A stretch of 64,000 nt of DNA from Thermoanaerobaculia bacterium (GTDB taxonomy: Bacteria > Acidobacteriota > Thermoanaerobaculia > Multivoradales > JAHEKO01), in assembly GCA_046756565.1 (NCBI GenBank), contig JBHHWO010000002.1, positions 1,141 to 65,140 of the forward strand. Reading direction: 5' to 3'. The notes beneath the pieces were generated by a model. The model worked only from the letters and a program-made list of their open reading frames with translations. It was not told where the DNA came from and searched no databases. Positions 6,133 through 32,692 of the stretch are shown here, one piece after another. Each line of letters opens with the position of its first letter. Position 1 is the stretch's first letter. The position numbers were made by a program, and so were the translations under genes.

Positions 6133-6147
6133 TGGCACGAGGATTGC
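6133..6147 (+). promoter_or_regulatory. Sigma-54 (-24/-12) promoter TGGCAC-GAGGA-TTGC
   Basis: Read directly: tcTGGCACgaggaTTGCgg. Exact GG-N10-GC spacing, about 55-70 nt upstream of the first start candidates (6205/6220) of the 8-gene operon. Confidence 0.6.
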
Positions 6148-19076: not shown

Positions 19077-21470
19077 CTACGGGATCGTCGGCGAGTCGTC
19101 CCCTGCGGCTGCGGGCCGGTAGGGAAAGCCCTCCATGTCGGCGCCGTGACAGCTCAGATAGCAGCGACGCTGGCGGGTCGACGTGTTGATCCACCATTCA
19201 GGGAGCGCGCGGCCGCCGAAGGGAGTGATGTCCGGCGAGAAGTTGACCAGATGGGTCTTGAAGCCGGCCGGTGGTGAGGTGAAGATCGTGCCGTTGACGT
19301 TGTACTGGGTGTTGTCCGCGGTGCGGTTCGAGTGGACGTTGAAGTGGCAGTTTTTGCACGTCGCCCGCGTGTCGTCGATGCGGTCGACCAGATGGACCTC
19401 GTGGAGGTTGTCGCGGCCATCGATCGTGTCGTAGAAGTTGGTCGACGCCGGTGGGTTGTCGTCGTCCCGACGGGCTTCGACGAGGCGTGCCGGATCATGG
19501 CAGAGGAAGCAGAGCTCGAAGTTGCTCCGGTTCCAGCTCGCTGGGCCTTGTAGATCGGTCCAGTACTCGGCGCGCCGGATGGCGGCGTTCGTCGAACCGT
19601 GAGGACCCTTGGGGGAGGCCGGCGAGTTCGACGCCGGACCGAAAGCGTCGGCAGTGGCCTCGTTGTTGTGACAGTCGGTACAGTCGATGGTGGAGGTCGT
19701 CGACAGCCCGCCCAGTAGCGCGTTGTTCAGGTTGGCCGACTGGTTCTGTCCCTGACCGGCAACAGGATGGAAGGCGCTGTTCGAAGTCTGGAAGTCGAGC
19801 CTCTTGTTGCTGGTTCCCGGCCGCGAGCTGTTGAACGTGTCTCCGTGACACTTGAAGCACAACTCGTACTGGACGAGATCTCGTTCGTTACCCGTGCCGG
19901 GCCCCACGGGATTGCCGGCCAGGTCGATTCCAGTGGCGCCGGCGAGCTTGTTGTCGGGTCGCGCCTTGTGGGGATTGTGGCAGTCGACACACTCGACCGA
20001 GCGTCCGGCGGTCTGCTCGGGGTCCGAGATCGGATGGTGGAAGATATCGGCACCGTTGGTGCCCTTCTGGAACTCGCCACGTATGTCGGTGCCGGCGGGC
20101 GAGCCATCGTGGCAGGTGAAGCACAGGTCCTCTGCATCGGCCGGGTCGCTGCCGTCGGCTGCAATGTCGTAGCGCTCGACCCAGAGCCTGGGGTAGTCCT
20201 GAGCCGGGGTCGCGTCGTCGGGCCAGCCGTGCGGCCAGTGGCAGTTCACGCAGCTACCGCGCTTCTCCGCCGTATGCGCAGGGAAGCTGGAGCCGTACTC
20301 GCCGCCGGGCCACAGCACACCGGTCGCAGCGTCGAAGTGCGAGCCGGCGACACGGTCGGCCAGCGTGTGGCACTCGAAGCAGACTTCGGTGATCGCCGCG
20401 CGCAGAATATAGCCGTCGTCGGTGCCCGAGGTGGCGGGATTGCCGCCCGGGAAGAAATGAGGCGCGTGACAGGTCATACAGCGGACGTTGGCCCCGGCGT
20501 CGAGCGGCAGCTGCAGCGGTGTCTGAAAGGTCGGATCGGCCGGAATGGGTACTCCAACCGGATGCGATCCCTGATCCGACGAGGTCACGTCGCGGACCTC
20601 GTGGCAGGTCGTACACATCTGATTGGTATCGTTTTGGACCCGCTGGTAGTGGCGACCGACACCGGTTCCGGTCCAGCCGGATCCGGCGCCGGTAAAGGGT
20701 GGAGCATTGGGATCGAAGGGCTGCTTGTCCTGCCAGTGCTGGTTGTGGCAGACGGTACACACCACCTTCTCGGCGCTGCGCTGGAAGCGGTTGGCCATGT
20801 CCGCCTCGAAGGCGATGCCGGGGTCCGGTGCCCGGAGGTCGGTGCGCACCCACAGCGTCCAGGTGTCCCCGGGGAGAAAGCTCGGCGACGCCGGCGCGTC
20901 GATGAAATCGAGGGTCAGGCCCGCGTCGAGCGGCACCGCCGCCCCCGAGGTGCCGGAGCCACTGCCGCCTTCCGAATCGGTCCAACTGAATGTCGCGATA
21001 CCCGCGTCACCGCCACCGGGAGGACCGGTGACGGTGATCGTGTAGGTGCGCTCGATGCGGCCGGTGAAAGCTCCGGCCGAGCGAATGAGGCCCGCAGAGA
21101 GGTTGGTGCCGGCGGCCTCGACGTGTCCCGAAGGACCGGAGTCCCACCGATGGGAGGTGCCGCTGAGCCCCGGGAAGGCCTGATCCGTGTCGCTCAGCGG
21201 CCGGTTGGCGGCCTGGCCGGTCACGTTGTGGCACGACTGGCACAGCAGGGGGACCGTCTGCGCCTTGATGATCGAGATGCCGTCGGCGTGGTGCGGCGTG
21301 TGGCAGGCCAGGCATGGCGCGTCGGGGAGCAGCACGTCGGAGTGCGGCGGATCGACGAACTGGGCCAAGGTCTCCGGGGCCGCAGCGGCGAAGAGGATGA
21401 TCGCCAGGACGACGGGCCGAGCACGTCCATTCAGGTTCGCTGTTCTCTTCATCGGTCGCGGTTCGTTCAT
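19077..21470 (-). CDS. Large multihaem cytochrome c (13 CxxCH + 1 CxxxCH)
   Basis: Signal peptide VVLAIILFAAAAPETLAQ. Counted by eye: CLACH, CQSCH, CTVCH, CTTCH, CMTCH, CFECH, CVNCH, CFTCH, CVDCH, CFKCH, CTDCH, CFLCH, CKNCH, plus CYLSCH. Confidence 0.9.
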   Translation of the reverse strand: MNEPRPMKRTANLNGRARPVVLAIILFAAAAPETLAQFVDPPHSDVLLPDAPCLACHTPHHADGISIIKAQTVPLLCQSCHNVTGQAANRPLSDTDQAFPGLSGTSHRWDSGPSGHVEAAGTNLSAGLIRSAGAFTGRIERTYTITVTGPPGGGDAGIATFSWTDSEGGSGSGTSGAAVPLDAGLTLDFIDAPASPSFLPGDTWTLWVRTDLRAPDPGIAFEADMANRFQRSAEKVVCTVCHNQHWQDKQPFDPNAPPFTGAGSGWTGTGVGRHYQRVQNDTNQMCTTCHEVRDVTSSDQGSHPVGVPIPADPTFQTPLQLPLDAGANVRCMTCHAPHFFPGGNPATSGTDDGYILRAAITEVCFECHTLADRVAGSHFDAATGVLWPGGEYGSSFPAHTAEKRGSCVNCHWPHGWPDDATPAQDYPRLWVERYDIAADGSDPADAEDLCFTCHDGSPAGTDIRGEFQKGTNGADIFHHPISDPEQTAGRSVECVDCHNPHKARPDNKLAGATGIDLAGNPVGPGTGNERDLVQYELCFKCHGDTFNSSRPGTSNKRLDFQTSNSAFHPVAGQGQNQSANLNNALLGGLSTTSTIDCTDCHNNEATADAFGPASNSPASPKGPHGSTNAAIRRAEYWTDLQGPASWNRSNFELCFLCHDPARLVEARRDDDNPPASTNFYDTIDGRDNLHEVHLVDRIDDTRATCKNCHFNVHSNRTADNTQYNVNGTIFTSPPAGFKTHLVNFSPDITPFGGRALPEWWINTSTRQRRCYLSCHGADMEGFPYRPAAAGDDSPTIP

Positions 21471-21474
21471 CGGA

Positions 21475-23619
21475 TCAGGGCATCAAGGTGGGGTCGATGA
21501 TCACCGAGAGCTTCGCCCCCTGATGAAAGGAAAGTCCGCCGTCGAGGCGTACCGATACACCGGCCCGCAGAGTCAGATTGCCGGTGCCTTCGACAACAAC
21601 CCCTGGGCCCACCGAGACCAGTTCGCAGGCCGCGAACTCTCGAGCGGTTGCCACGGTCTCGTTGGAGATCTGAAGAACGGCGACGCTCACAAGGCCGTCG
21701 CCATCGTTGCAGTCGTGGGAAAAACAGACACCATCGGCATCGCTGTCAAGCGTGGCGTTGTTGCCCGTACAAGGGTCACAGTCGTCGGGCACGCCGTCGC
21801 CGTCGGCGTCGAAGGTGTCGTTGAATCCAGGACACATGTCGCAGGGGTCGGGCACACCGTCGCCGTCGGCGTCGTTACCCGAGCAGACATCACAGCCGTC
21901 GGGAATGCCGTCACCGTCGATGTCCAACGTATCGTCGAAACCTAGGCAGATGTCGCAGGTGTCGGGTACGCCGTCGCGGTCGGCGTCGAGTGCGTCGTTG
22001 AAACCGGGGCAACGGTCGCAGGCGTCGGGCGCGCCGTCTCCGTCGGCGTCGAAGGCGTCATCGAATCCGGGGCACAGGTCGCAGCCGTCGGGTACGCCAT
22101 CTCCGTCTGTCTCCGCCGTGTCGTTCCATCCGGCGCAGATGTCGCAACCGTCAGGTACGCCATCACCGTCGGTGTCGACCGCGTCGTTCGCTCCGGCGCA
22201 GATGTCGCAGGCATCGGGTAGGCCGTCGGCGTCTGCGTCCAGGGTGTCGTCGAACCCCGGACAGACGTCGACGGCATCCGGCACCCCGTCGTTGTCACCG
22301 TCAGGACTGGGCGCTACGATCACGGCGTCGAAGCCCTCGAGCGCGAAGGCACCCATCAGGCCGGCTATGCGTATGACCCCGCTGCCCGCCGCCGGCAGGG
22401 TGGATGCGAGCTGAGTGCCGTCGAAAGCTACGTGGACGTCGGGTGTCTGGTCGCCATCGGCATCTCCGAGCACCGCGGATCCCGCGATAGGCGCGACACT
22501 ATTGGCGGTGAGGGAGCCGAGGTCGATGAGCGCGAGATCGTAGCCGGGTAGTTCGAGCGTAGCCGACACCTCCGCGTGCACCAGCGGGTCGAAGACCTGC
22601 GGCTCGACCTCGACTTCGAGCTGGACGACGGTCTCCGGGTCGACGTAGCTGTCGAGGCCGTACATCTCGATGCGGGCGGTGGTGTTGGCGGTCGTCACCA
22701 GGCGCCCCGAGGGATCGATCAGAACGTCAGTGGGAGTGGCGAGCTGGCCCGGTCCCACGCCGACGTCGTTCACGTCGCCGATCGTCACTACCGTCGCCCC
22801 CAGGCGGTCGATGACGTGGACCCAACCTTCGAAGGCGTCGGACACGAAGATCCGGCCGAGAGCGTCGGCCCAAATGCCCTGCGGCATGTTGAAGCGGCCG
22901 CTGCCCGAACCTTTTTCCCCCAGGCAGGCGACGAAGGCGCCGGCGCGGTCGAAGATCTGGATCCGGCCGTTCAGCTGGTCGGTGACCAGCACCTCGTCGG
23001 CGACGGTGTCGATGTGGATTCCAGCGGGAAACTGAAACTGCCCGTCGCCCGTGCCGCGCGCGCCGAAACCGAAGCGCTTGACGCCAGCGACGTCGTACAC
23101 CTCGACCCGGTTGGCAATGCTGTCGACCACCCAGACATCGCCGGTCGCCGGGTCGACGGCGGCGTCGCCCGGCAGGCCGAACTCGCCGGCGCCTTGGCCC
23201 AGGTCGAAGAGTGCCTGCCAGTCCGAGGTGTAGGCCGTGACACGGCCGTCGACTCCGTCCCCAACGTAGATTCGGTCGCCGGCGGCCGTTACAGCGACAC
23301 TCACCGGCTGGCCCAGGCCTTCGCCCACGGTCAGGAGCCTGCCGTCGGCGGCGCGCACCGCGACCTTGGCGCCTACTGCATCGGCGATATAGATGCGCCC
23401 GAGAGTGTCGACGGCGAGCCGCGTAGGAGTCTGGAACGAAGCGCGGTAGCCGCGCAACCACTCCACTGTGGGCGCCGGTAGCGCCGAGGTCCCGCCGCTC
23501 GAACAGACCGTCGCCATCGCAACCGTCGCCACCGGTCCGAACATGCCAAGCAGCAAGAGCAGCCAGATCCGTAGCGGCGGCACCGGTCGGCCGACAGCTC
23601 GAGTGTCGCTCTCACTCAT
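21475..23619 (-). CDS. NHL-repeat beta-propeller protein with thrombospondin type-3-like Ca-binding repeats
   Basis: ATG at 23619 (the track gives TTG 23658). Signal/lipobox VAMATVCSS. NHL blades (IYIADAVGAKVAV, VWVVDSIANRVEVYD, VLVTDQLNGRIQIFD, IFVSDAFEGWVHVID). Then 8-9 units of C-x-G-x-D-D-x-x-D-x-DGDGVPDxCD. Confidence 0.85.
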   Translation of the reverse strand: MSESDTRAVGRPVPPLRIWLLLLLGMFGPVATVAMATVCSSGGTSALPAPTVEWLRGYRASFQTPTRLAVDTLGRIYIADAVGAKVAVRAADGRLLTVGEGLGQPVSVAVTAAGDRIYVGDGVDGRVTAYTSDWQALFDLGQGAGEFGLPGDAAVDPATGDVWVVDSIANRVEVYDVAGVKRFGFGARGTGDGQFQFPAGIHIDTVADEVLVTDQLNGRIQIFDRAGAFVACLGEKGSGSGRFNMPQGIWADALGRIFVSDAFEGWVHVIDRLGATVVTIGDVNDVGVGPGQLATPTDVLIDPSGRLVTTANTTARIEMYGLDSYVDPETVVQLEVEVEPQVFDPLVHAEVSATLELPGYDLALIDLGSLTANSVAPIAGSAVLGDADGDQTPDVHVAFDGTQLASTLPAAGSGVIRIAGLMGAFALEGFDAVIVAPSPDGDNDGVPDAVDVCPGFDDTLDADADGLPDACDICAGANDAVDTDGDGVPDGCDICAGWNDTAETDGDGVPDGCDLCPGFDDAFDADGDGAPDACDRCPGFNDALDADRDGVPDTCDICLGFDDTLDIDGDGIPDGCDVCSGNDADGDGVPDPCDMCPGFNDTFDADGDGVPDDCDPCTGNNATLDSDADGVCFSHDCNDGDGLVSVAVLQISNETVATAREFAACELVSVGPGVVVEGTGNLTLRAGVSVRLDGGLSFHQGAKLSVIIDPTLMP
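21694..22305 (-). repeat. In-frame tandem ~63-bp (21-aa) TSP3-like repeats inside the NHL gene
   Basis: Protein residues ~452-655: CPGFDDTLDADADGLPDACDI / CAGANDAVDTDGDGVPDGCDI / CAGWNDTAETDGDGVPDGCDL and so on. The DNA shows the recurring gtcgggcacgccgtc[gc]ccgtcggcgtc. Confidence 0.85.
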
Positions 23620-23654
23620 CTGCAAGCTCCGGAATGAGTGGCAACCGTCACGTA

Positions 23655-26339
23655 TCAAGGCCTCTCAATTCGCTTTTCAAGGCCGAAACGGCACATCCCG
23701 TGCGCGTTCTCTTCGAGAATCTTCCACTCGCTTCCCTCCCGAACGAGCTCGAGCGTCTTGTCGACGGAGTCCGAGCAGAGACTGGAGCGATAGGCCTGGC
23801 AAAACGAGACGCGAACCCGGTCGCGGCTCGATTCGGTGATCGATAACGACTCGATATCGACTTCGATCCAGGCTGGAGCCAACAATCGTTGCCGACGAAG
23901 CCTTTGCCAAGCGTCGCGCTTCGCGCCACTCGCGGGTCGGAACTCGGCCGAATAGGAGGACAGGTAACGGTCGACGTCTCCGGCCGCCCACGCGGCGGCC
24001 CAGCCCTCTACGACCGATCGGATGGCCCTTTCCTCCTGGCTTCGATCCGGTACTGTCGTCTGTTCCCTCTTTCCATCCCGAGGTGCTTCCACTTGCCCGG
24101 AAGTCGACTCGGCAGGTTGCGTTGGCGCCTGCGTCTCCGGCTCGCCTGAACCGGATGGCTCGGCCGGGTTCTGCTCACCCCGGCCCGCTGCGTGCTCGGC
24201 AAGATCGAAAAGACCGGAAGTCTCGGTGATGCCCGGCTCATCCTGCTCCCAGGCGGCTTCCGCTCCGTAGGGATACGGCTCCATGCCGGGCAAGTCCTCC
24301 GGCCAGGGCTCGTACTCTGGAGCTCTCCTGCGGGCGGGTAACGTGCCTGGAAAGAACCGACGTGAAAATCTCAGAGAGCCGGTGACGCCCTCGACCGTTT
24401 GAAAGCCCCGCTCGCGTTGCCAGTGCTCGGCCGATGCGATCAGCTGCACCTTGCCCAGTCTCCATCTGGCGCTGAATCCGAAACGCTCGAATGCCTGGTC
24501 TGCCGCCAGGCTATCGACGACCTCCCGGTGACTGGCATAGGACTCGAGCTTCAGCGATGGCACGGGTTCCCACTGCGCGCTCACTCTGCCCTCCATGACT
24601 TCCGTCTCTCGCACCGGCCTCTTGAATCGAGTATCCATCCAAACGAGATTCGCCCGGATCGTCCACCTGGAACTCGGGATGTAGGTGAGGCCGTCGGCGA
24701 GCCGGAGCGATTCGAATGCGAGGAGACTGGAGTCGCGAGTTCGGAGTTCGTTGAACGAGCTGAGTTTGATCCGTTGTCCGTCCCGGCGGAGTCTGAAGCC
24801 GGCGTACTTGTCCCTACGATCGTCAAGCAGAGAATCCGTTTGGCCGGCCAGAAGGTCGTCGCTGAAGCTCCGGAAGCCGAAGAAGCCCGTAATCCAGGAG
24901 TAGTCGACGGAAACGTCCAACTCGGTGCGGCGCGAGTCGAACCGGCTCTCGTCGGGAACTCGTATTCGATACTCGACCAGAATCGACTGACCGTCGGCGA
25001 TTCTTCCGCCGGGCAGAGGCAAGATCTCGGCGAACTCTCCAACGAAGTGGATCTCGTAGTCGGTTCCCTCCTCGAAGATCGTGCTTCCGAGTTCGTCGGT
25101 TACGACCACCGTTCCGGGAATCACCGCCGGCTGATCGAGCCGCGACGGAACTCCGAATCGAAGCCGCTGTTGCTCTCGGGAGATCAAGAGCTCGCCATCG
25201 CCGTCCAGGCTGTCGCGCCGGTCGTAAGTGCTACCGAGGCGACCGGTGAGCTTGCCCCGTCCGGGCAGCCTCTTTCTGTAGTCGAACTGGAGCCTGGCCT
25301 GGTCTTGACTGCTGCGGCCCGCGTCCGAGGTGAGATCCGATCTGGTGAAGCGAAGGTCGGTGTCGAGGCTCTCCCAGAGGCGGTGGTTAAGCCATGCGCT
25401 GAGCCTCTGAGAGTCGGTGGCTCGACCAGAGAAGGTTTCCTGATTCCTGTATTCGTAGCGCAGGCCGCTTTCGAGGGTGTCCCTGTGGCGCAGGCGGAGG
25501 TCTTCGTCGATCGAGAATGAAGACGAAGTCAGCTCCCCGGACCTGTCGAAGTAGCGTACCGTGGATCGCAGGGTCGCCAGCCGGGGCTCGAGCAGCTCGA
25601 TTGTGTGATTCAGGCTCGCGGTCTGAGTCTGATTGCTGAAGCGGGGTGATAGCTCGTCCTCGACATCCTCGATCTGAAGAAAAAGATAGGCCTCGTTGCG
25701 CCGCCACCGGTTCTCGGCCTGGTAGCTCAACGTCTCCTTTTTCTGGTCGAACGCTCGTATTTGCCGATCGAAATCGGAGATCGACTCGAGAGTGTTGTTC
25801 CGATAGCTCAACCGCGCCGGGAAGAACCTAGGTCCCACCTGAAATGCGAGACCGAGGCTGGAGGTGTCGAGCCTCTGGCTGCCGGCGAATTCGACCGGGG
25901 TTACGGTCTCAGCCTGGTTCGCGAACAGAGTGAATCCGTAGGCCTTGTCGGGCATGAAGGTCGCGTTCAGATCGTAGCCACGAACCTTGCCCTCGCCCGA
26001 TGCTTCCTGGTCGAGTCCGGAGGTGGTACTGCTCCGTAGAAAACCGAGGGTCAGGCCGAAGTTGACGGTCAGGAAGCGGCGGCTGACGAAGATGGCGGTG
26101 TTTCTGAACCCGAATCTCTGCTCGGTCTGGTTGCGCTCCACTAGAGGCCTGCTACCTGCACTCGAGAACAGATTCTGCTCCTGATGGTCGAATCCCAGTT
26201 CCGCGAAGCCCGTCCAGCGCCCAAGCCGGAATCCGCGGACCGTGGCCTGGGCCGGCGCGACGGCGCCAGCCCAGAGCGCGACAGCGAGGACCGCCGCCGT
26301 CACTCTGTGGTCGCCGGCCGCGGATTCAGTTGGCCACAT
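23655..26339 (-). CDS. Large outer-membrane beta-barrel-like protein with C-terminal linker and NTF2/SnoaL-like domain
   Basis: ATG at 26339 gives signal peptide VTAAVLAVALWAGAVAPAQA. About 650 aa of alternating-polarity strands end in GSLRFSRRFF (OM beta-signal-like). Then a ~105-aa P/E/Q-rich linker and ~124 aa ERAIRSVVEGWAAAWAAGDVDRYLSSY...WKILEE (NTF2-like). Confidence 0.65.
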   Translation of the reverse strand: MWPTESAAGDHRVTAAVLAVALWAGAVAPAQATVRGFRLGRWTGFAELGFDHQEQNLFSSAGSRPLVERNQTEQRFGFRNTAIFVSRRFLTVNFGLTLGFLRSSTTSGLDQEASGEGKVRGYDLNATFMPDKAYGFTLFANQAETVTPVEFAGSQRLDTSSLGLAFQVGPRFFPARLSYRNNTLESISDFDRQIRAFDQKKETLSYQAENRWRRNEAYLFLQIEDVEDELSPRFSNQTQTASLNHTIELLEPRLATLRSTVRYFDRSGELTSSSFSIDEDLRLRHRDTLESGLRYEYRNQETFSGRATDSQRLSAWLNHRLWESLDTDLRFTRSDLTSDAGRSSQDQARLQFDYRKRLPGRGKLTGRLGSTYDRRDSLDGDGELLISREQQRLRFGVPSRLDQPAVIPGTVVVTDELGSTIFEEGTDYEIHFVGEFAEILPLPGGRIADGQSILVEYRIRVPDESRFDSRRTELDVSVDYSWITGFFGFRSFSDDLLAGQTDSLLDDRRDKYAGFRLRRDGQRIKLSSFNELRTRDSSLLAFESLRLADGLTYIPSSRWTIRANLVWMDTRFKRPVRETEVMEGRVSAQWEPVPSLKLESYASHREVVDSLAADQAFERFGFSARWRLGKVQLIASAEHWQRERGFQTVEGVTGSLRFSRRFFPGTLPARRRAPEYEPWPEDLPGMEPYPYGAEAAWEQDEPGITETSGLFDLAEHAAGRGEQNPAEPSGSGEPETQAPTQPAESTSGQVEAPRDGKREQTTVPDRSQEERAIRSVVEGWAAAWAAGDVDRYLSSYSAEFRPASGAKRDAWQRLRRQRLLAPAWIEVDIESLSITESSRDRVRVSFCQAYRSSLCSDSVDKTLELVREGSEWKILEENAHGMCRFGLEKRIERP

Positions 26340-28155
26340 GGCAGCGAACACAGGTAGTGAATCCGATTTCCCACGCGATCCGGCCGTTGTGGCAGGTCGC
26401 GCAGAACTCACCCCGCCGCATGGCGGTCATGGTGATCGGGTTGGCTCCGGCTTTCATTTCGAACACACTCGGGTGGCACGAGGCGCACTTGAATCGGATG
26501 CGATGAAACCAGTGAGGAAACGTCGCCGGCGGAGTGTCCTTGCCGGCCAGCAGAAACAGCTCGTCGACCCCCGCTAGCTCGTCAGGACTCAAGCCTTCGA
26601 TGTTGTTCAAGGCAATCTGGGCTTCGGCAGCCAGCTCTGCCTCCGAGAGTTCCCTACGCTCGAAGTGGATGTCACCTTTGACCGCGAACGGTGACGGCTC
26701 CTCCTCGGCGAACGACAGTATGAATGCCGCTAACTGCCAAGCTTGTTCCGGTTGGAGAAACTGACCGAAGCCAGGCATAGGCGTGCCCGGGAAGCCGGTC
26801 ATGACGACTCGGTACATATCCCTGATACCGGAGCCGGACTTCGGCGGCCTCCCAGCCGCGAAGTTGTACGGCAAGATCGGATCGCCCCACTCGTCTTTCA
26901 GCGTTTCAGCCGAGGCGCCATCGGCCCGGCCCGTGTCGCCGTGGCACGCTTGGCAGCCGGCCTGTCTGTAGAAGGCTCGGCCCTGCTCGACCAATTCCGC
27001 CGTGACCTCGGGGGTCTCTGGGATGGTGATCGGTTCGTCCGGCTCTTCATTGGCGAACCGTGGAGAGAAGGACTTGACGAAGTGCGTCAATGCCCAGCGA
27101 TCCTCGGTTGACAGGGCGATCCAGCTGGGCATCGACGAGCCCGGGACACCACGAGTGATCGTCCGAAAGATGTCGTAGTCCGTCGGCAGGGAAGCTCCGA
27201 TTGTCGAGCGGAACTTGTACTTGCCGGCCGTGAAGTCGCGCGGCTTGGGATCCACCCACGGCGCCATCCGGCCCTGGCCGTCACCGGCGTCTCCATGACA
27301 GAGAGCGCAGTAGCGCTGGTATGCCTGCTGGCCCCGTTTGATCAGCTCGTCAGAAGCAACCAGTGGGCTGTCCAAAGCGCGAGCCAGCTCGGCATCGACA
27401 GTCTCGTCGCTCGCCGGCATGAGACTCGAGTGACAACGCGCACAGCTCAACTCCGGATCGTAGGACACTCGCCCGTGGCACTTGCCGCAGCCCTCCCCGG
27501 CGAGAATCCGGTCCATCGGCTTGCGCAGCGTCGCGGCGCCGGGATGGCAGCTCGAGCAAGTCAGCCAGAGCGTATGCGAGGCATGTGGGAAGTCCACCGT
27601 GAAGAACGGATCTGACTCGGGCACCAGCTCGAGGTCGAGATCGAGAACCGGACGATCGGGGAATCCGGCCGCCACCGTGGCAAACGTCTCCAGCCGAAAA
27701 GGCGGCTCGAAGGGAGTGGCCTGTGGTTCGGGAAGGGCTCGCGGTTCGATCAATCCATCTTTGATTGCCTGAACCCAGTCGACACCGCCGGCGTAGTCGG
27801 TGGGAAGCTGGGTCAGAGCCTCCTGCCACGTCGTGACATTCTCGAGCGGCGCCTTGACGGCGAGCTCGAGTCCCTCGATTACGGCCTGATCGAGCGGTAC
27901 GACAGGCGGCGAGTTTCGAGCTCGCCGAGCCCGCGCGGAATCGTCGCCGGTCGCGGGCGTCGGAGGCGGCGGGACGTTGGGACCAGGCTCGAGGAGGGAC
28001 TCTTCGACCCTCTCTTCGGTTGGCTCGGGGAGCCCATCGAAGAAAACCGAAAGCACTTTATGCCTGCTCGTCGTGGAGCAGGCATAGACCGCGGTCAGGC
28101 AAACGAGCGACGCCAAAACCGGTGCAGTTCGGAGTCGCCCTGGTGGTGCTCTCAC
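26326..28155 (-). CDS. Octahaem lipoprotein cytochrome c: c7-type trihaem + two class-I-like monohaem domains + c7-type trihaem
   Basis: Lipobox-like LTAVYAC. CSSCH, CGKCH, CARCH (first c7-like, FPHASHTLWLTCSSCHP). CALCHGD and CQACHGD (class I-like with downstream Met). CASCH, CATCH, CVRCH (second c7-like, FPHWFHRIRFKCASCHP). Confidence 0.85.
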   Translation of the reverse strand: MRAPPGRLRTAPVLASLVCLTAVYACSTTSRHKVLSVFFDGLPEPTEERVEESLLEPGPNVPPPPTPATGDDSARARRARNSPPVVPLDQAVIEGLELAVKAPLENVTTWQEALTQLPTDYAGGVDWVQAIKDGLIEPRALPEPQATPFEPPFRLETFATVAAGFPDRPVLDLDLELVPESDPFFTVDFPHASHTLWLTCSSCHPGAATLRKPMDRILAGEGCGKCHGRVSYDPELSCARCHSSLMPASDETVDAELARALDSPLVASDELIKRGQQAYQRYCALCHGDAGDGQGRMAPWVDPKPRDFTAGKYKFRSTIGASLPTDYDIFRTITRGVPGSSMPSWIALSTEDRWALTHFVKSFSPRFANEEPDEPITIPETPEVTAELVEQGRAFYRQAGCQACHGDTGRADGASAETLKDEWGDPILPYNFAAGRPPKSGSGIRDMYRVVMTGFPGTPMPGFGQFLQPEQAWQLAAFILSFAEEEPSPFAVKGDIHFERRELSEAELAAEAQIALNNIEGLSPDELAGVDELFLLAGKDTPPATFPHWFHRIRFKCASCHPSVFEMKAGANPITMTAMRRGEFCATCHNGRIAWEIGFTTCVRCHVAN

Positions 28156-28191: not shown

Positions 28192-28899
28192 CTATTCTCC
28201 AGTGAACTCGAAGCTGACTTGGGTTTCTCCGCTGTCGGCCACGGTGATCTCCCGCGTCTGCTCACCCAACTTCTCGTGCCAAAGCGAGAGCTGGTGATTC
28301 CCGGCGGGAACATCGGCCAAGGTAAAGCTTCCTGTTTCGTCGGTGACCGCCGTATAGCGACTATCGGTCACCAGAATCCACGCGGTCATCCATCCGTGCA
28401 CGTCGCACTTGACTTTGATCACCTCGGACTCGTCGAAGGTCAACTGCAGAGTCTGCACGAAGCCCGGCTGGGCCAGGTTCATCGGCGGGTTCTCGTCTGA
28501 GTAGGTGTGCACGTTGTGAAGGATGCCGTCGCTGTTGATCACCGCCATCTCCTCGCCGGGACGCGCGATCACCACCCGAGGCTCAAACGTGCAGCCATTC
28601 TGGTCGAGCTTCGGCTGCTCCGAGCTCTCGGTTGCACCCCGGGCGCTCGAGACCTGGACCACCGCCCACTGCAGCCCCTGGTCTTCACTGACGACGAGCT
28701 CGGGATCGACCTGCTCGGTGCCACAGACCGAAGTGTCCTGTGCCACCGCAACAGGTTCTGCGGCGGGCACGGTCCCGTTGAACTTGACCGTGCCTACAAC
28801 GGTACCAGCCGACAGGGTTGTCGACAGCGTGGACGTCAGAATCAGGATGGCCAGGACGGCGAGAGCTGATCTTGTCGAGTGGATGGGTCTTACTTGCAT
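28192..28899 (-). CDS. Secreted cupredoxin-like protein with C-terminal CarboxypepD_reg-like beta-sandwich
   Basis: Signal peptide. Type-1 Cu-like ligand pattern INSDGILHNVH ... KCDVHGWM (H...C-x2-H-x2-M, amicyanin-like spacing). C-terminal TDETGSFTLADVPAGNHQLSLWHEKLG. RBS AAGGAG 8 nt upstream. Confidence 0.7.
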   Translation of the reverse strand: MQVRPIHSTRSALAVLAILILTSTLSTTLSAGTVVGTVKFNGTVPAAEPVAVAQDTSVCGTEQVDPELVVSEDQGLQWAVVQVSSARGATESSEQPKLDQNGCTFEPRVVIARPGEEMAVINSDGILHNVHTYSDENPPMNLAQPGFVQTLQLTFDESEVIKVKCDVHGWMTAWILVTDSRYTAVTDETGSFTLADVPAGNHQLSLWHEKLGEQTREITVADSGETQVSFEFTGE

Positions 28900-29012: not shown

Positions 29013-29822
29013 CTAGCCGCGGTCGTGGCACTTCTGGCAGATGTACGACGCTCCAGGACCGGTTCCCGAGCCACCGAGGGTTCCGCGCAGCAGCGGCTGG
29101 TCGTGAACCAGGCCACGTTCGTTGTGGACACCGTGGCACGAGGTGCATTCGATTCCTGTGCTGCCCGCCACGGCACCGGCGGAGATGTTGCCGGCGTTGT
29201 CGTTGAAGAGGCGGATACCGAGAGAGGTCGGGTCCGGATTGAAGTCGGCTGTGAACGTATTGGCGCCGGTAGTCACGCCGTTGTAAGTGTTGGTCGTCGT
29301 CTGCTGGAAGGGATAGGGGAACGCGACCGGGTGGTTGCCGCTCATATTGCCGGTGGTCGGATCGGCGATGTTGAAGACGTCGACGTCGTGTGTGGTTGGA
29401 TCCAAGGCCGCGGCCCCTGTCCATGCCTGCTTGTTGAACCAGGCGATGTCACCGATCGCCACCGAACCGTCGTGACAGCTCAGACAGAGCTTGGTCGGGC
29501 CCTTCCAGGTGGTGTCGATAGTGGGGTAGGGAGTGCCGCCGGCCGTCACCGCACCCGCGTCCCAGGAGTAGGTGTTAGACGAAAGTGTGTGGTTCCACAA
29601 GAGGCTCTGCTGCTGAGCCCTGTGGGGTGTATGGCAGAAAGTGCAGCCGCCGGTGGTCGCGGTCGGGTTGCCCGTGTTGCCCGCTGCGATTCCGGAGAAA
29701 TCGTGCGGGCTGTTCGTGAAGCCGGATCCTGGTGTGTAGCTCTGCGCCCAGGCCGCTCCCGAGAAGAGCAGCAGCACGGTGACGAGCGTCGTGAGTGCCA
29801 ACCTGGAGTTTGTTCCTCTCAT
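29013..29822 (-). CDS. Secreted tetrahaem cytochrome c (paired-CxxCH type)
   Basis: Internal ATG at 29822 after GGGAGGA. Signal peptide LALTTLVTVLLLFSGAAWAQ. SPHDFS...CTFCHTPH, CLSCHDG, CTSCHGVH, CQKCHDRG. Confidence 0.85.
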   Translation of the reverse strand: MRGTNSRLALTTLVTVLLLFSGAAWAQSYTPGSGFTNSPHDFSGIAAGNTGNPTATTGGCTFCHTPHRAQQQSLLWNHTLSSNTYSWDAGAVTAGGTPYPTIDTTWKGPTKLCLSCHDGSVAIGDIAWFNKQAWTGAAALDPTTHDVDVFNIADPTTGNMSGNHPVAFPYPFQQTTTNTYNGVTTGANTFTADFNPDPTSLGIRLFNDNAGNISAGAVAGSTGIECTSCHGVHNERGLVHDQPLLRGTLGGSGTGPGASYICQKCHDRG

Positions 29823-29859: not shown

Positions 29860-31029
29860 CTATCGAGATTGAGACGCTCCCTCGTCGTTCGACGGAGAGT
29901 CCTTCTGGTCCGAAGAGATATAGCTGTCTTCAGCGGTCGTATTGACGAGCTCGTAGCGAGCGACGCGGTAGTTGAGGTAGTCGGCGATGTAGATGCGGTT
30001 CTGCCGGTCGATCGCAATTCCGGTCGGGTTCTTCAGAAGTCCGGGGTGAACTCCGCGCCCCCCGAAGAAAAGCAGCACCTGTCCCTTTTGATTGAAGATC
30101 TGAACGTTTGACCATCCGGAATCGACGACATATACGTTGCCGAAGCCGTCGATAGCGACCCCCTTGGGCTTGTCGAACATGCCGAATGCCGTTCCCCGCT
30201 CACCGAAGTACTTGAGGTAGTTGCCGTCCACGTCGAAGACGTCGACTCGGGACTTCAGGGTGCTGGTGACATAGAGGTTGCCGTCGGAATCTACGGCGAC
30301 GTAAGTCGGGAAGAACAGGCACCCGTCACAAATCCCCTTCTTTCCCACAGTGCGCAGCAGTCGGCCCTCGAGATCGAATACCTTTACCGAGTGATCCTCG
30401 GATGCCTTGGTCGCCGGATCCGCGACGTAGAGGAGGCCGCGCGTGCGATCGAGCTCGATGTCGGCGGGCCGCACTAGCGAAGGGTGCTTGATGATCCGGA
30501 TGGGTTCGTGCTGGCGGTCGAGCACCACGATCCGTCGATTGCCCTGTTCGACGACATAGAGATTCTCTTGCTCGTCCAGGGCCAGTCCAAAAGGACGGCT
30601 GAACGGCCGTGTGTCGCCGATCAAGGAGACCCGCTTGGTATCGAAGTCGAAAAGGAAGACCACGGCTTGACCGAAGTCGGAGACATAGAACCGCTTGCCG
30701 TCGTCAGACACCGCGACATCCATGGGCTGGTAAACGTGGGATTTCGGCGGCGTGGTTCCGGCGAAAAACTCCATGAACAGCTCACGCCGGGTGGGCTTGC
30801 GCCCGAGATGCTTCTCGTCGGCATACGACTGCAGAAACCTGATCCTGGGCTCCTGGGGAGGCTCGGGCCAAACCAGCTCGATCAACTCCGGTTCAACCAC
30901 CTTGGCCTTTCTGTTCTTGTTCCTCTTCTTGCCCTTCGCATCCGCCGTTTCGACACCTGCAATCAAAGTCGCGACGGCAACCAGCAAGACGAGCCAACGC
31001 CGGCCGAGATAGGTAGATTCCTTGATCAT
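29860..31029 (-). CDS. NHL-repeat six-bladed beta-propeller protein, secreted
   Basis: Signal peptide LVLLVAVATLIAGVETADA. Blades FYVSDFGQAVVFLFD, LYVVEQGNRRIVVLD, LYVADPATKASEDHSVKVFD, LYVTSTLKSRVDVFD, VYVVDSGWSNVQIFN, IYIADYLNYRVARYE. Confidence 0.85.
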   Translation of the reverse strand: MIKESTYLGRRWLVLLVAVATLIAGVETADAKGKKRNKNRKAKVVEPELIELVWPEPPQEPRIRFLQSYADEKHLGRKPTRRELFMEFFAGTTPPKSHVYQPMDVAVSDDGKRFYVSDFGQAVVFLFDFDTKRVSLIGDTRPFSRPFGLALDEQENLYVVEQGNRRIVVLDRQHEPIRIIKHPSLVRPADIELDRTRGLLYVADPATKASEDHSVKVFDLEGRLLRTVGKKGICDGCLFFPTYVAVDSDGNLYVTSTLKSRVDVFDVDGNYLKYFGERGTAFGMFDKPKGVAIDGFGNVYVVDSGWSNVQIFNQKGQVLLFFGGRGVHPGLLKNPTGIAIDRQNRIYIADYLNYRVARYELVNTTAEDSYISSDQKDSPSNDEGASQSR

Positions 31030-31079: not shown

Positions 31080-31094
31080 GCAAAGCGAGTGCCA
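31080..31094 (-). promoter_or_regulatory. Sigma-54 (-24/-12) promoter TGGCAC-TCGCT-TTGC(T)
   Basis: Plus strand reads gcaaagcgagtgcca. Reverse complement is TGGCACTCGCTTTGC with exact spacing, about 50 nt upstream of the NHL gene start (31029). Confidence 0.65.

Positions 31095-31237: not shown

Positions 31238-32684
<1,447 letters not shown>

Positions 32685-32692
<8 letters not shown>

What the first reader, a model, noticed from the sequence alone, without database searches (positions are those of the whole stretch)
23655..26339. Giant OM barrel whose beta-signal (..SLRFSRRFF) is internal, followed by an acidic linker and an NTF2/SnoaL-like domain
- After a signal peptide, about 650 aa show the alternating hydrophobic pattern and frequent aromatic girdle residues of a large (over 20-strand) barrel.
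- The barrel ends in an OM-insertion-signal-like RFSRRFF at about residue 687.
- Then come ~105 aa rich in P/E/Q/G and ~124 aa (ERAIRSVVEGWAAAWAAGDVDRYLSSY...EWKILEE) of NTF2-like character.
- With an even strand number this tail would be periplasmic, as in OmpA topology.
- The gene overlaps the octahaem gene by 14 nt and is followed by the NHL/TSP3 gene and the 14-haem gene, the classic position of a porin in porin-cytochrome modules. I cannot assign it to MtrB/PioB or any other family by eye.
Basis: partly seen in the sequence, partly recalled or inferred. Interest (0 to 1): 0.7.

Follow-up and report, generated by a model that had tools for sequence, protein, structure and literature searches.

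The report
Cytochrome-conduit barrel with wall-binding-type tail
This gene encodes a very large outer-membrane barrel that sits in a conserved gene cluster for moving electrons across the cell envelope, and in this lineage it has gained a flexible tail ending in a domain of a type known elsewhere to bind the cell wall.

Summary
The gene lies on the minus strand (23655-26339, 894 aa).

- **Layout:** signal peptide, then a roughly 30-strand beta-barrel (AlphaFold pLDDT 88; best PDB fold match MtrB). The barrel ends in ...SLRFSRRFF at aa 655-663. A conserved Pro/Trp motif follows, then an 82-aa acidic variable linker, then a Pfam Cds6_C NTF2-like domain (E 1e-15).
- **Internal end signal:** the barrel family has about 2,750 clusters at 50% identity, and no Pfam or NCBIfam model covers it. 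In 112 of 145 full-length representatives the protein stops at that ...RRF, so the extension is specific to this lineage. Only four distinct proteins seen carry the NTF2 tail.
- **Gene context:** all 24 related loci fetched, plus one gene table without DNA, carry multihaem cytochrome genes beside the barrel. Those with both flanks show NHL, tetrahaem, c7 cytochrome(s), barrel, NHL, 11-14-haem cytochrome. This is the parts list of the Uet cluster of Tenderiales.
- **Not MtrB/PioB by sequence:** 0 of 53 members hit the HMM, and hhalign gives 0.17% probability.
- **Tail:** it matches the NTF2 domains of Bd1075 and Csd6. The related Pgp2 domain binds peptidoglycan.

Best reading: a Uet-type electron-conduit barrel with a periplasmic tether that probably binds the cell wall. 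I rate it a new variant of a known kind.

The parts
26244..26339 (-). Signal peptide, aa 1-32 (MWPTESAAGDHRVTAAVLAVALWAGAVAPAQA|T)
   Evidence: Read from the sequence. The N-terminus aligns with the MRxxE... starts of homologues. AlphaFold predicts a helix at aa 9-27.
24351..26243 (-). Outer-membrane beta-barrel, aa 33-663, about 30 strands
   Evidence: AlphaFold pLDDT 88. Foldseek top hit is MtrB 6r2q_B, E 1e-10. The family has 2,756 representatives at E<=1e-3. No Pfam or NCBIfam family covers it.
24990..25157 (-). Conserved small beta-domain inserted between barrel strands 18 and 19, about aa 395-450 (...VVVTDE...DYE...AEILPLPGGRI...)
   Evidence: It is the most conserved stretch of the family consensus. 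It forms short strands in the models. 20 of 53 members give a weak hit here to NCBIfam NF052337, a phage tail tube protein.
24351..24401 (-). Last barrel strand with the beta-signal-like end ...SLRFSRRFF, aa 647-663. R660 and R661 are invariant in A1, the 14-sequence alignment of the close relatives.
   Evidence: 112 of 145 full-length family members terminate here with an aromatic residue.
24282..24350 (-). Conserved post-barrel motif, aa 664-686 (PGTLPARRRAPEYEPWPEDLPGM)
   Evidence: It is 70-78% identical to P0002-4, more than the barrel itself at 60-64%. It is also present in relatives that lack the NTF2 domain.
24036..24281 (-). Acidic, Pro/Gly/Gln-rich linker predicted to be disordered, aa 687-768
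   Evidence: pLDDT below 50. pI 4.1, and only 24-33% identity among the tail-bearing homologues.
23700..24035 (-). Cds6_C NTF2-like domain, aa 769-880, including Tyr850
   Evidence: Pfam PF24125, E 1.2e-15. Sequence matches to PDB 7O21 (Bd1075 NTF2, E 4e-5) and 4XZZ (Csd6). Tyr850 aligns with the residue I take to be the Bd1075 pocket residue Y274; that mapping assumes a +5 offset between chain index and residue number, which I inferred and did not verify. 43-52% identity among the tail-bearing homologues.
26326..28155 (-). Upstream cytochrome with 8 CXXCH: two c7 trihaem domains plus two class-I (cbb3-type) monohaem domains. Overlaps the barrel gene by 14 nt.
   Evidence: Conserved upstream of the barrel in the related loci.
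28192..28899 (-). 235-aa secreted CarboxypepD_reg protein with a weak cupredoxin-like match
   Evidence: Copper-bind E 1e-3. Conserved in L001-L004 and L024.
29013..29822 (-). Tetrahaem cytochrome (4 CXXCH, doubled-CXXCH type)
   Evidence: Found in the related loci whose upstream flank is held.
29860..31029 (-). First NHL beta-propeller protein, 389 aa
   Evidence: 45-70% identical copies occupy the same position in the related loci.
21475..23658 (-). Second NHL beta-propeller protein, here enlarged to 727 aa, with a weak match to MtsC (NCBIfam tag 'throspo3'). Its ORF overlaps the barrel stop codon by 4 nt.
   Evidence: An NHL gene follows the barrel in nearly every locus whose downstream flank is held; in L010 the match is only partial.
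19077..21470 (-). Cytochrome with 13 CXXCH plus 1 CX4CH, doubled-CXXCH motifs and MtrC domain II/IV similarity
   Evidence: The counterpart in most other loci is about 565 aa with 11 CXXCH plus 1 variant motif.
31080..31094 (-). Perfect sigma-54 promoter consensus TGGCACTCGCTTTGC, ending 51 nt upstream of the first cluster gene
   Evidence: Only 2 perfect matches occur in the whole window.
31238..34481 (-). Sigma-54-dependent response regulator and histidine kinase, directly upstream of the cluster
   Evidence: The same gene pair lies upstream of the cluster in L004.

Best explanation
The gene encodes the outer-membrane beta-barrel subunit of a Uet-type porin-multihaem-cytochrome module.

The barrel has about 30 strands and is wider than the 26-strand MtrB. 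I infer that it sheathes or docks haem proteins so that electrons can cross the outer membrane. On the periplasmic side are the c7/class-I cytochrome and the tetrahaem cytochrome. On the outer side are the 14-haem cytochrome and its NHL propeller partner.

In the wider family the protein ends at a conserved ...RRF, which is the last barrel strand and resembles the signal that the barrel-assembly machinery recognises. In a small Thermoanaerobaculia/Acidobacteriota lineage, three pieces were added after that strand:
- a conserved Pro/Trp motif;
- an acidic linker of about 80 aa, predicted to be disordered;
- in four distinct proteins seen, an NTF2-like domain of the Cds6_C family, related to the Csd6 and Bd1075 domains.

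With an even number of strands the tail stays in the periplasm. There the NTF2 pocket most likely binds peptidoglycan and tethers the conduit to the cell wall. This would be functionally like the OmpA C-terminal domain but built from an unrelated fold.

The cluster is probably switched on by the adjacent sigma-54 two-component system.

What is shown and what is inferred:
- Shown here: the domain layout, the fold, the family, the gene order, the domain assignments and the promoter motif.
- Inferred: electron transfer, its direction, the side of the membrane the tail is on, and peptidoglycan binding.
For: **Barrel.** AlphaFold pLDDT 88 with 29-30 strands. The best PDB fold match is MtrB in both models.

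**Family and its C-terminus.** 2,756 representatives. 112 of 145 full-length members end in an aromatic residue, mostly RRF.

**Gene order.** The order is conserved across Acidobacteriota, Nitrospinota, Methylomirabilis, Rokubacteria, Binatia, Omnitrophota and gamma-, beta- and delta-proteobacterial MAGs.
- The downstream cytochrome has 11 CXXCH plus 1 variant motif in 14 of the 18 loci analysed.
- c7 genes occur in multiples of three haems.
- Two NHL genes and a tetrahaem gene are present.
- This is the Uet parts list (bioRxiv 10.1101/2022.05.06.490989; PMC9900912).
- ResB or NrfG-type TPR genes follow in L020 and L015, as ccsAB and nrfG follow uetJ.

**Tail domain.**
- Pfam Cds6_C, E 1e-15.
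- Sequence hits to the Bd1075 and Csd6 NTF2 domains.
- The Pgp2 NTF2 domain binds peptidoglycan (PMC8038945). The Bd1075 NTF2 domain targets that periplasmic enzyme to one face of the cell (PMC8938487).
- The eight closest NTF2 relatives in metagenomes were checked. Each full-length one is a secreted TPR protein with a low-complexity linker and a C-terminal NTF2 domain; one locus is cut at its 5' end. This is the same linker-plus-C-terminal-module design in exported proteins.

**The fusion is real and under selection.**
- Three independent homologues at 55-57% identity carry it in the same gene context.
- Conservation is 70-78% in the post-barrel motif, 43-52% in the NTF2 domain and 24-33% in the linker.

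**Regulation.** A sigma-54 promoter and its activator lie adjacent.
Against: - No experiment exists for any member of this barrel family. The Uet cluster itself is a bioinformatic proposal.
- Direct sequence comparison with Tenderia UetC could not be run. The gene order differs from uetA-J, and no PPIase (UetB) was found.
- DSSP gives 29 clear strands. The even count of 30 depends on treating the short strand at aa 451-460 as part of the wall, so the periplasmic placement of the tail rests partly on the general rule that such barrels have an even number of strands.
- Peptidoglycan binding is shown only for Pgp2. There the NTF2 domain accompanies a catalytic domain that is absent here.
- The NTF2 domain here is acidic (pI 5.5).
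- One tail-bearing homologue (P0004) lacks the pocket Tyr at the aligned position.
- Most family members work without any tail, so the tail is an accessory.
Confidence: 0.55

Rival explanations
1. The barrel is as described and the tail is periplasmic. However, the NTF2 domain does not bind peptidoglycan. It binds a protein partner, such as a periplasmic cytochrome or an assembly factor, or a small hydrophobic or redox-active ligand. It would then act as a docking or sensing module on a flexible leash.
For: NTF2-like and SnoaL-like pockets bind very diverse ligands, and the Bd1075 paper stresses that function cannot be predicted from the fold. The domain also gives weak SgcJ/EcaC and DUF4440-type matches. 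It is acidic, pI 5.5. The conserved motif directly after the barrel suggests that a protein-protein contact is the older function of the extension.
Against: The specific Pfam family and the only solved relatives are accessory domains of peptidoglycan-trimming enzymes. Tyr850 aligns with the Bd1075 residue I take to be pocket residue Y274 (numbering offset inferred). No candidate partner gene co-varies with the presence of the tail. The neighbouring genes are the same with and without it.
Confidence: 0.25
2. The barrel is not an electron conduit. It is an export or assembly pore, or a generic large porin, that places the NHL protein and the large cytochrome on the cell surface. The tail serves that secretion role.
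For: The barrel protein carries no haem motif in any of 252 family members. An NHL propeller gene follows it in nearly every locus whose downstream flank is held. The second- and third-ranked fold matches include LptD, ushers and TonB-dependent transporters, all of which move cargo. The conserved internal domain could act as a plug or gate.
Against: The top fold match in both models is MtrB, the sheath of an electron conduit. The strict pairing with periplasmic c7 cytochromes on one side and a large doubled-CXXCH cytochrome on the other is the porin-cytochrome pattern. No secretion ATPase or chaperone genes are conserved in the cluster. MtrB-type barrels are also needed to place their outer cytochrome, so the two roles do not exclude each other.
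Confidence: 0.1
3. The C-terminal extension passes back through the barrel lumen and displays the NTF2 domain on the cell surface, as the passenger of intimin/invasin-type inverse autotransporters does.
For: The order of parts is the same: an N-terminal barrel, then a linker, then a folded C-terminal domain. A barrel of about 30 strands has room. The odd DSSP count of 29 leaves topology open.
Against: Solved relatives of the tail domain are periplasmic, and its nearest metagenome relatives carry signal peptides with no barrel. The lumen is expected to hold cytochrome. Inverse autotransporters have 12-strand barrels and Ig-like or lectin passengers, which are not present here. Family members without a tail show that the barrel needs no passenger.
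Confidence: 0.07
4. The barrel-NTF2 fusion is an assembly or frameshift artefact that joins two separate genes.
For: The window comes from a metagenome-assembled genome. Most relatives lack the tail.
Against: The frame is open and continuous for 894 codons. Three further proteins from different data sets (Logan, ENA, NCBI), 55-57% identical, have the same fusion with Pfam PF24125. Their gene context matches. There is no start codon plus signal peptide in front of the NTF2 part.
Confidence: 0.02

Closest known systems
Uet (undecahaem electron transfer) cluster of Candidatus Tenderia electrophaga / Tenderiales, also reported in some Gallionella. UetC is its predicted 28-strand barrel.
   Same: The parts list matches. 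It comprises a very large barrel without haem, a tetrahaem cytochrome (UetA-like), c7-type trihaem units (UetD/E/G-like; fused here into one 8-haem protein, separate genes in other loci), two NHL propeller proteins (UetH/I-like), and a doubled-CXXCH cytochrome with 11-12 haems in most related loci (UetJ-like). The window clade also has a small protein with a weak cupredoxin-like match (UetF-like). ResB or NrfG-type genes lie downstream in some loci.
   Different: The gene order differs. Here the barrel lies between the c7 genes and the NHL gene, not before the c7 genes. No PPIase (UetB) was found. The window's large cytochrome has 14 haem motifs and the NHL protein is doubled in size. The barrel carries a C-terminal motif, linker and NTF2 domain, which the Uet text I read does not mention for UetC. 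Direct sequence homology to ALP54624.1 could not be tested here.
MtrB of the MtrCAB complex (PDB 6R2Q) and the MtrB/PioB family (PF11854, TIGR03509)
   Same: It is the best structural match in the PDB for both models (E 5e-10 and 1e-10). It has the same genomic logic of a barrel flanked by multihaem cytochromes. The downstream cytochrome has similarity to MtrC domains II/IV.
   Different: There is no sequence relationship. 0 of 53 family members hit the HMMs at E<=1. The family profile finds nothing in PDB sequences. hhalign against a genuine MtrB/PioB protein (L007, PF11854 E 2e-126) gives 0.17% probability. TM-scores are below 0.5. The barrel has about 30 strands against 26, carries a conserved internal domain, and is partnered by c7 and NHL proteins rather than an MtrA decahaem.
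OmpA-type architecture: an N-terminal barrel whose last strand is internal, followed by a linker and a periplasmic peptidoglycan-binding domain
   Same: The order of parts is the same, and so is the consequence: the barrel's end signal is not at the protein's C-terminus. The proposed role of tethering the outer membrane to the cell wall is also the same.
   Different: The barrel has about 30 strands rather than 8. The linker is about 100 aa and acidic. The C-terminal domain is an NTF2-like fold (PF24125), not the OmpA_C fold; no OmpA-family hit appeared in the Pfam scan. Peptidoglycan binding is untested.
NTF2-like accessory domains of the LD-carboxypeptidases Csd6 (H. pylori, 4XZZ), Pgp2 (C. 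jejuni, 6XJ6) and Bd1075 (Bdellovibrio, 7O21), and the Pfam family Cds6_C
   Same: Pfam match above the gathering score. Direct sequence similarity to the Bd1075 and Csd6 NTF2 domains. A conserved Tyr at the position I take to be the pocket-base residue (offset inferred). C-terminal position in an exported protein.
   Different: It is attached to an outer-membrane barrel rather than to a YkuD-type catalytic domain or a TPR domain. A long disordered linker precedes it.

Membership tests
MtrB/PioB outer-membrane porin family (PF11854 / TIGR03509) | Match to the family HMM | tested here: not met
   The window protein gives no hit at E<=0.01. 0 of 53 diverse family members hit at E<=1. Positive control: the L007 protein hits PF11854 at E 1.7e-126.
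MtrB/PioB outer-membrane porin family (PF11854 / TIGR03509) | Profile-level homology to a genuine member | tested here: not met
   hhalign of the 96-sequence family profile against the L007 MtrB/PioB protein gives probability 0.17%, E 0.35. The family profile against all PDB sequences, which include MtrB 6R2Q, finds nothing relevant.
MtrB/PioB outer-membrane porin family (PF11854 / TIGR03509) | 26-strand barrel fold sheathing a decahaem MtrA-type cytochrome | tested here: inconclusive
   MtrB is the top Foldseek hit, but TM is 0.46/0.47. The model has 29-30 strands. No MtrA/DmsE-type decahaem is adjacent; the periplasmic partner is a c7/class-I protein.
Uet cluster (UetC barrel) of Tenderiales | Very large haem-free barrel (28 strands predicted for UetC) | tested here: met
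   29-30 strands. No CXXCH motif in 252 family proteins.
Uet cluster (UetC barrel) of Tenderiales | Co-located tetrahaem (UetA), c7 trihaem units (UetD/E/G), two NHL proteins (UetH/I) and an undecahaem doubled-CXXCH cytochrome (UetJ) | tested here: met
   Window: with 8-haem and 14-haem variants. Related loci have 4-haem, 3/6/9-haem and 11+1-haem genes plus two NHL genes.
Uet cluster (UetC barrel) of Tenderiales | PPIase UetB and cupredoxin UetF in the cluster; gene order uetA-J | tested here: not met
   No PPIase was found in the gaps and ORFs examined. The 235-aa protein gives only a weak Copper-bind match, E 1e-3. The gene order differs.
Uet cluster (UetC barrel) of Tenderiales | Sequence homology to Tenderia UetC (ALP54624.1) | not testable with these tools
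   The sequence could not be retrieved. The genome scan, which was limited by its search patterns, returned no Tenderia locus. A search with a gammaproteobacterial family member returned 99 proteins that are either unnamed or called 'hypothetical protein'.
Pfam Cds6_C (PF24125), related to the Csd6/Pgp2/Bd1075 NTF2 accessory domains | HMM match above the gathering score | tested here: met
   E 1.2e-15, 58.2 bits against a cut-off of 27, aa 773-878 covering profile positions 2-111 of 111.
Pfam Cds6_C (PF24125), related to the Csd6/Pgp2/Bd1075 NTF2 accessory domains | Similarity to solved members, and the pocket-base tyrosine | tested here: met
   7O21, E 4.4e-5 over 104 aa, and 4XZZ, E 8e-3. 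Tyr850 aligns with the Bd1075 residue I take to be Y274. That mapping assumes a +5 offset between chain index and residue number, which I inferred and did not verify.
Pfam Cds6_C (PF24125), related to the Csd6/Pgp2/Bd1075 NTF2 accessory domains | Binds peptidoglycan | not testable with these tools
   Shown experimentally only for Pgp2 (PMC8038945).
OmpA family | C-terminal OmpA-like (PF00691) peptidoglycan-binding domain | tested here: not met
   The Pfam scan of the whole protein found only Cds6_C.
Cyc2-type fused cytochrome-porin | Haem-binding CXXCH motif in the same polypeptide as the barrel | tested here: not met
   No CXXCH motif in the window protein or in any of 252 family proteins.
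Inverse autotransporter (intimin/invasin) | 12-strand N-terminal barrel with a C-terminal Ig-like or lectin passenger | tested here: not met
   The barrel has about 30 strands. The C-terminal domain is NTF2-like.

The most novel reading that the evidence does not exclude
Two linked readings remain open.

1. This roughly 30-strand barrel family defines a major class of outer-membrane electron conduit. It has about 2,750 clusters at 50% identity, spans at least ten bacterial lineages, every named member seen is from an uncultured genome, and no Pfam or NCBIfam model covers it. It is evolutionarily separate from MtrB/PioB and has its own conserved internal domain.

2. The Thermoanaerobaculia variant would be the first electron conduit physically tethered to peptidoglycan. 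It would do so through an NTF2-type wall-binding domain rather than an OmpA-type one, which would mean wall anchoring of an outer-membrane barrel was invented independently.
Probability: 0.35. Interest if true: 0.7.

Novelty: new variant of a known kind. Interest (0 to 1): 0.55.

Why it matters
[quoted passage not shown] Only the Mtr complex has a solved structure. Most other types, Uet included, are known only from gene clusters.

This analysis shows that the barrel in the window belongs to a very large, unannotated family. The family is distinct from MtrB by sequence and is always embedded in the same cytochrome and NHL gene kit. It occurs in lineages important for nitrogen, methane, iron and sulfur cycling, including Nitrospinota, Methylomirabilis, Rokubacteria, Binatia, Acidiferrobacterales and Acidobacteriota. 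That gives a concrete marker gene and a profile for finding such conduits.

**The tailed variant.** It offers a natural handle on two questions. The first is which side of the membrane the barrel termini face. The second is whether large electron-transfer complexes need to be fixed to the cell wall. It would also extend the known roles of the Cds6_C / Csd6-Pgp2-type NTF2 domain beyond enzymes that shape the cell.

Tried and rejected
- **Plus-strand reading.** Translating the plus strand of the given coordinates gives a frame full of stops. The gene is on the minus strand.
- **Profile search of the word-indexed protein collection.** A search with the 145-sequence alignment A2 returned only the same 15 close relatives, so it added nothing.
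- **Genome scan with broad alignments.** Only the narrower A5 worked, and its patterns limited which organisms could be found. No Tenderia, Gallionella or Leptothrix locus came back, so direct UetC homology stayed untested.
- **Search from a gammaproteobacterial member.** This gave 99 hits that are either unnamed or called 'hypothetical protein', with no Pfam domain.
- **Family profile against PDB sequences.** Nothing relevant.
- **Internal-domain profile against PDB sequences.** Only spurious short matches to flavin monooxygenases.
- **PPIase (UetB) near the barrel in related loci.** Not found.
- **Cytochrome-porin fusion (Cyc2-like).** Rejected; no haem motif in any family member.
- **MtrB/PioB membership.** Rejected.
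- **Assembly artefact for the fusion.** Rejected on the independent homologues.
- **Upstream GTG at 26411 as the start.** Rejected. It would add 24 residues that do not resemble a signal peptide and would overlap the upstream gene by 86 nt. Homologues align with the ATG.
- **Literature.** The searches for 'Cds6' and for Thermoanaerobaculia together with multihaem and porin gave nothing useful.

Full report
**1. What is in the sequence**

The coordinates hold a single continuous ORF on the minus strand, 23655..26339, with an ATG at 26339, encoding 894 aa. The plus strand is closed by stops. The frame stays open up to a GTG at 26411. From the ATG, the SLRFSRRFF end of the barrel is aa 655-663.

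The public record is a Thermoanaerobaculia MAG protein annotated 'hypothetical protein'.

**2. Anatomy**

Pfam and NCBIfam recognise nothing in aa 1-770. They recognise the Cds6_C NTF2-like domain (PF24125) at aa 773-878, with E 1.2e-15 and 58 bits against a cut-off of 27.

A first AlphaFold model of the whole protein, made with 14 sequences, showed:
- a confident all-beta region at aa 40-662;
- a disordered stretch at aa 665-764 (pLDDT below 50);
- a helix-plus-sheet C-terminal domain.

A second model of aa 30-697, made with 96 sequences, reached pLDDT 88 and pTM 0.78. It has 29 long strands of 12-23 residues joined by short turns, plus a shorter strand at aa 451-460. If that strand is part of the wall, the barrel has 30 strands. 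I could not inspect coordinates, so the count of 29-30 and its parity stay open.

Between strands 18 and 19 lies a small beta-domain of about 55-70 aa (about aa 395-450). It is the most conserved segment of the whole family.

Foldseek against the PDB puts MtrB of the Mtr complex (6r2q_B) first for both models, at E 5e-10 and 1e-10 with TM 0.46/0.47. Cir, LptD, other TonB-dependent receptors and SlpA follow. So the protein is an outer-membrane barrel of the largest size class, and it is not a soluble fold.

**3. The internal end signal**

A profile search of 1.84 billion representatives found 2,756 family members at E<=1e-3 and 1,392 at E<=1e-30. Most are 640-690 aa long and match the profile up to position about 661.
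- Of 145 full-length representatives, 112 end in F/W/Y, typically ...RVIRRF, and 120 end in F/W/Y/L/I.
- Most of the rest run on for only 1-10 residues.
- More than 25 residues after the RRF occur only in the window's own clade: P0002-P0010, P0016, P0018 and some fragments.

That clade shares a motif directly after the barrel, FPGxLxxxRRxxxxEPWPxDLPG. It is 70-78% identical between the window and P0002-4, which is more than the barrel at 60-64%.

Only four distinct proteins go on to carry the linker and NTF2 domain: the window protein (the same as P0001) and P0002, P0003 and P0004. Among these the linker is 24-33% identical and the NTF2 domain 43-52%.

It came about by stepwise C-terminal addition.

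**4. Gene context**

In the window, all on the minus strand, the order is:
1. an NHL propeller (389 aa);
2. a tetrahaem cytochrome;
3. a 235-aa CarboxypepD_reg protein with a weak cupredoxin-like match;
4. an 8-CXXCH cytochrome made of two c7 trihaem domains and two class-I monohaem domains, overlapping the barrel gene by 14 nt;
5. the barrel;
6. an enlarged NHL protein (727 aa), with a weak match to MtsC (NCBIfam tag 'throspo3');
7. a cytochrome with 13 CXXCH plus 1 CX4CH, with doubled-CXXCH and MtrC domain II/IV matches.

Upstream lie a histidine kinase and a sigma-54 activator. A perfect sigma-54 promoter (TGGCACTCGCTTTGC) ends 51 nt before the first gene.

The same arrangement was found for close relatives (L001-L004, L023, L024), for distant ones (P0011, P0012) and for 17 loci from species-representative genomes. 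Those genomes are labelled Nitrospinota, Methylomirabilis, Rokubacteria, Binatia, Omnitrophota, Acidiferrobacterales and Ectothiorhodospiraceae, with other gamma-, beta- and delta-proteobacterial MAGs.

In 14 of the 18 loci analysed, the downstream cytochrome has 11 CXXCH plus one variant motif. It is about 565 aa where the first-start ORF call does not over-extend it. The upstream c7 genes carry 3, 6 or 9 haems. No family member contains a haem motif itself.

**5. Comparison with known systems**

*MtrB/PioB.*
- 0 of 53 diverse members hit PF11854 or TIGR03509 at E<=1.
- A genuine MtrB/PioB gene happens to lie in locus L007 and hits the model at E 2e-126, which serves as a positive control.
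- hhalign of the family profile against that protein gives 0.17% probability.
- The family profile finds nothing relevant among PDB sequences.

So the protein works like, and folds like, MtrB, but it is not a member of that family.

*Uet cluster.* The parts list matches the Uet cluster described bioinformatically for Candidatus Tenderia electrophaga, and later reported in some Gallionella. Its components are UetA (tetrahaem), UetC (barrel, 28 strands predicted), UetD/E/G (c7 trihaem), UetF (cupredoxin), UetH/I (NHL) and UetJ (undecahaem with doubled CXXCH), with ccsAB and nrfG downstream.
- In agreement, a ResB-like gene follows the undecahaem gene in L020, and an NrfG/CcmH-type TPR gene follows it in L015.
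- Against it, the gene order differs and I found no PPIase.
- I could not obtain the Tenderia UetC sequence, so direct homology is untested.

**6. The tail**

The NTF2 domain matches the NTF2 domains of Bd1075 (7O21, E 4e-5 over 104 residues) and Csd6 (4XZZ). Both are periplasmic LD-carboxypeptidases.
- In the related enzyme Pgp2, the NTF2 pocket binds peptidoglycan (PMC8038945).
- In Bd1075, the NTF2 domain targets the enzyme within the periplasm, and Y274 forms the base of the pocket (PMC8938487).
- In the alignment, the tyrosine I take to be Bd1075 Y274 aligns with Tyr850 of the window protein. This assumes a +5 offset between chain index and residue number, which I inferred and did not verify.

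A metagenome scan with the tail found eight relatives at 36-42% identity. Each full-length one is a secreted protein built as TPR, then a low-complexity linker, then Cds6_C; one locus is cut at its 5' end. Pfam confirmed that architecture for the two proteins scanned. This is the same linker-plus-C-terminal-module design in exported proteins.

Taken with the rule that bacterial outer-membrane barrels have an even strand number with both termini in the periplasm (established knowledge), the most likely reading is a periplasmic tail that binds the cell wall. That would be OmpA-like in logic but built from a different fold. Location and ligand are both inferences.

**7. Mechanism and direction**

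I propose the following. The barrel sheathes or docks haem proteins. The c7/class-I cytochrome and the tetrahaem cytochrome feed it from the periplasm. The 14-haem cytochrome and the NHL protein form the outer part. The conserved internal domain and the post-barrel motif are contact sites for partners. The NTF2 tail fixes the complex to the wall.

Two observations hint at electron uptake (oxidation of external donors), as proposed for Uet. The periplasmic cytochrome contains class-I monohaem domains. The family also occurs in aerobic or nitrate-dependent lithotrophs. This is weak inference only.

**8. Verdict**

The barrel is a member of a large, unannotated, Uet-like family. The tail is a new domain combination limited to a small clade. 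I rate it a new variant of a known kind, of moderate to good interest.

Noticed in passing
window 31080-31094 (-), with 31238-34481 (-): A perfect sigma-54 promoter consensus ends 51 nt upstream of the first gene of the cytochrome cluster. It sits next to a sigma-54 activator and a histidine kinase. The same regulator pair lies upstream of the cluster in L004. This suggests the whole module is inducible through sigma-54.
   Followed up: partly
window 24990-25157 (-); family-wide: A small beta-domain inserted between barrel strands 18 and 19 is the most conserved part of the family. In 20 of 53 members it gives weak hits (best E 6.5e-8) to NCBIfam NF052337, 'phage tail tube protein 6XGR'. One subfamily has two conserved cysteines in it. 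Its function and the side of the membrane it faces are unknown.
   Followed up: partly
L007 1293-3572 (+) and 9896-11962 (+): One uncultured bacterium carries a genuine MtrB/PioB porin gene (PF11854, E 2e-126) only about 6 kb upstream of its Uet-like barrel. The two barrel types therefore coexist in one locus and do not replace each other.
   Followed up: partly
window 6133-6147 (+), 6205-7950 (+), 7953-9425 (+), 9422-11395 (+): The window's second perfect sigma-54 promoter match precedes a run of three genes: an FG-GAP/ASPIC protein, a protein with a hydrazine-synthase-alpha middle domain, and a beta-propeller fused to a di-haem peroxidase/MauG-like domain. This may be a second redox module under sigma-54 control.
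   Followed up: no
L014 14702-16498 (+) and 16502-18358 (+): In a Binatia MAG, the undecahaem gene is followed by an ORF with an NAD-dependent DNA-ligase adenylation domain and a cytochrome b561 domain. A 618-aa protein with 23 CXXCH motifs comes next. The ORF boundaries were not checked.
   Followed up: no
L025-L032 (for example L027 5185-6345): The closest relatives of the tail domain in metagenomes are secreted proteins of about 360-400 aa built as TPR, then an Ala/Pro/Lys-rich linker, then Cds6_C. The domain therefore recurs as a C-terminal module on a long flexible linker.
   Followed up: partly
window 21475-23658 (-) and 19077-21470 (-): In the window's clade the downstream NHL protein is about twice the usual size (476-727 aa against about 350). 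The large cytochrome has 13+1 haem motifs rather than 11+1. These changes go together with the C-terminal extension of the barrel.
   Followed up: partly
window 26304-26339 (-): The public annotation of this protein (882 aa) starts 12 codons downstream of the ATG, which removes the charged start of the signal peptide. Homologue alignment supports the ATG at 26339.
   Followed up: yes
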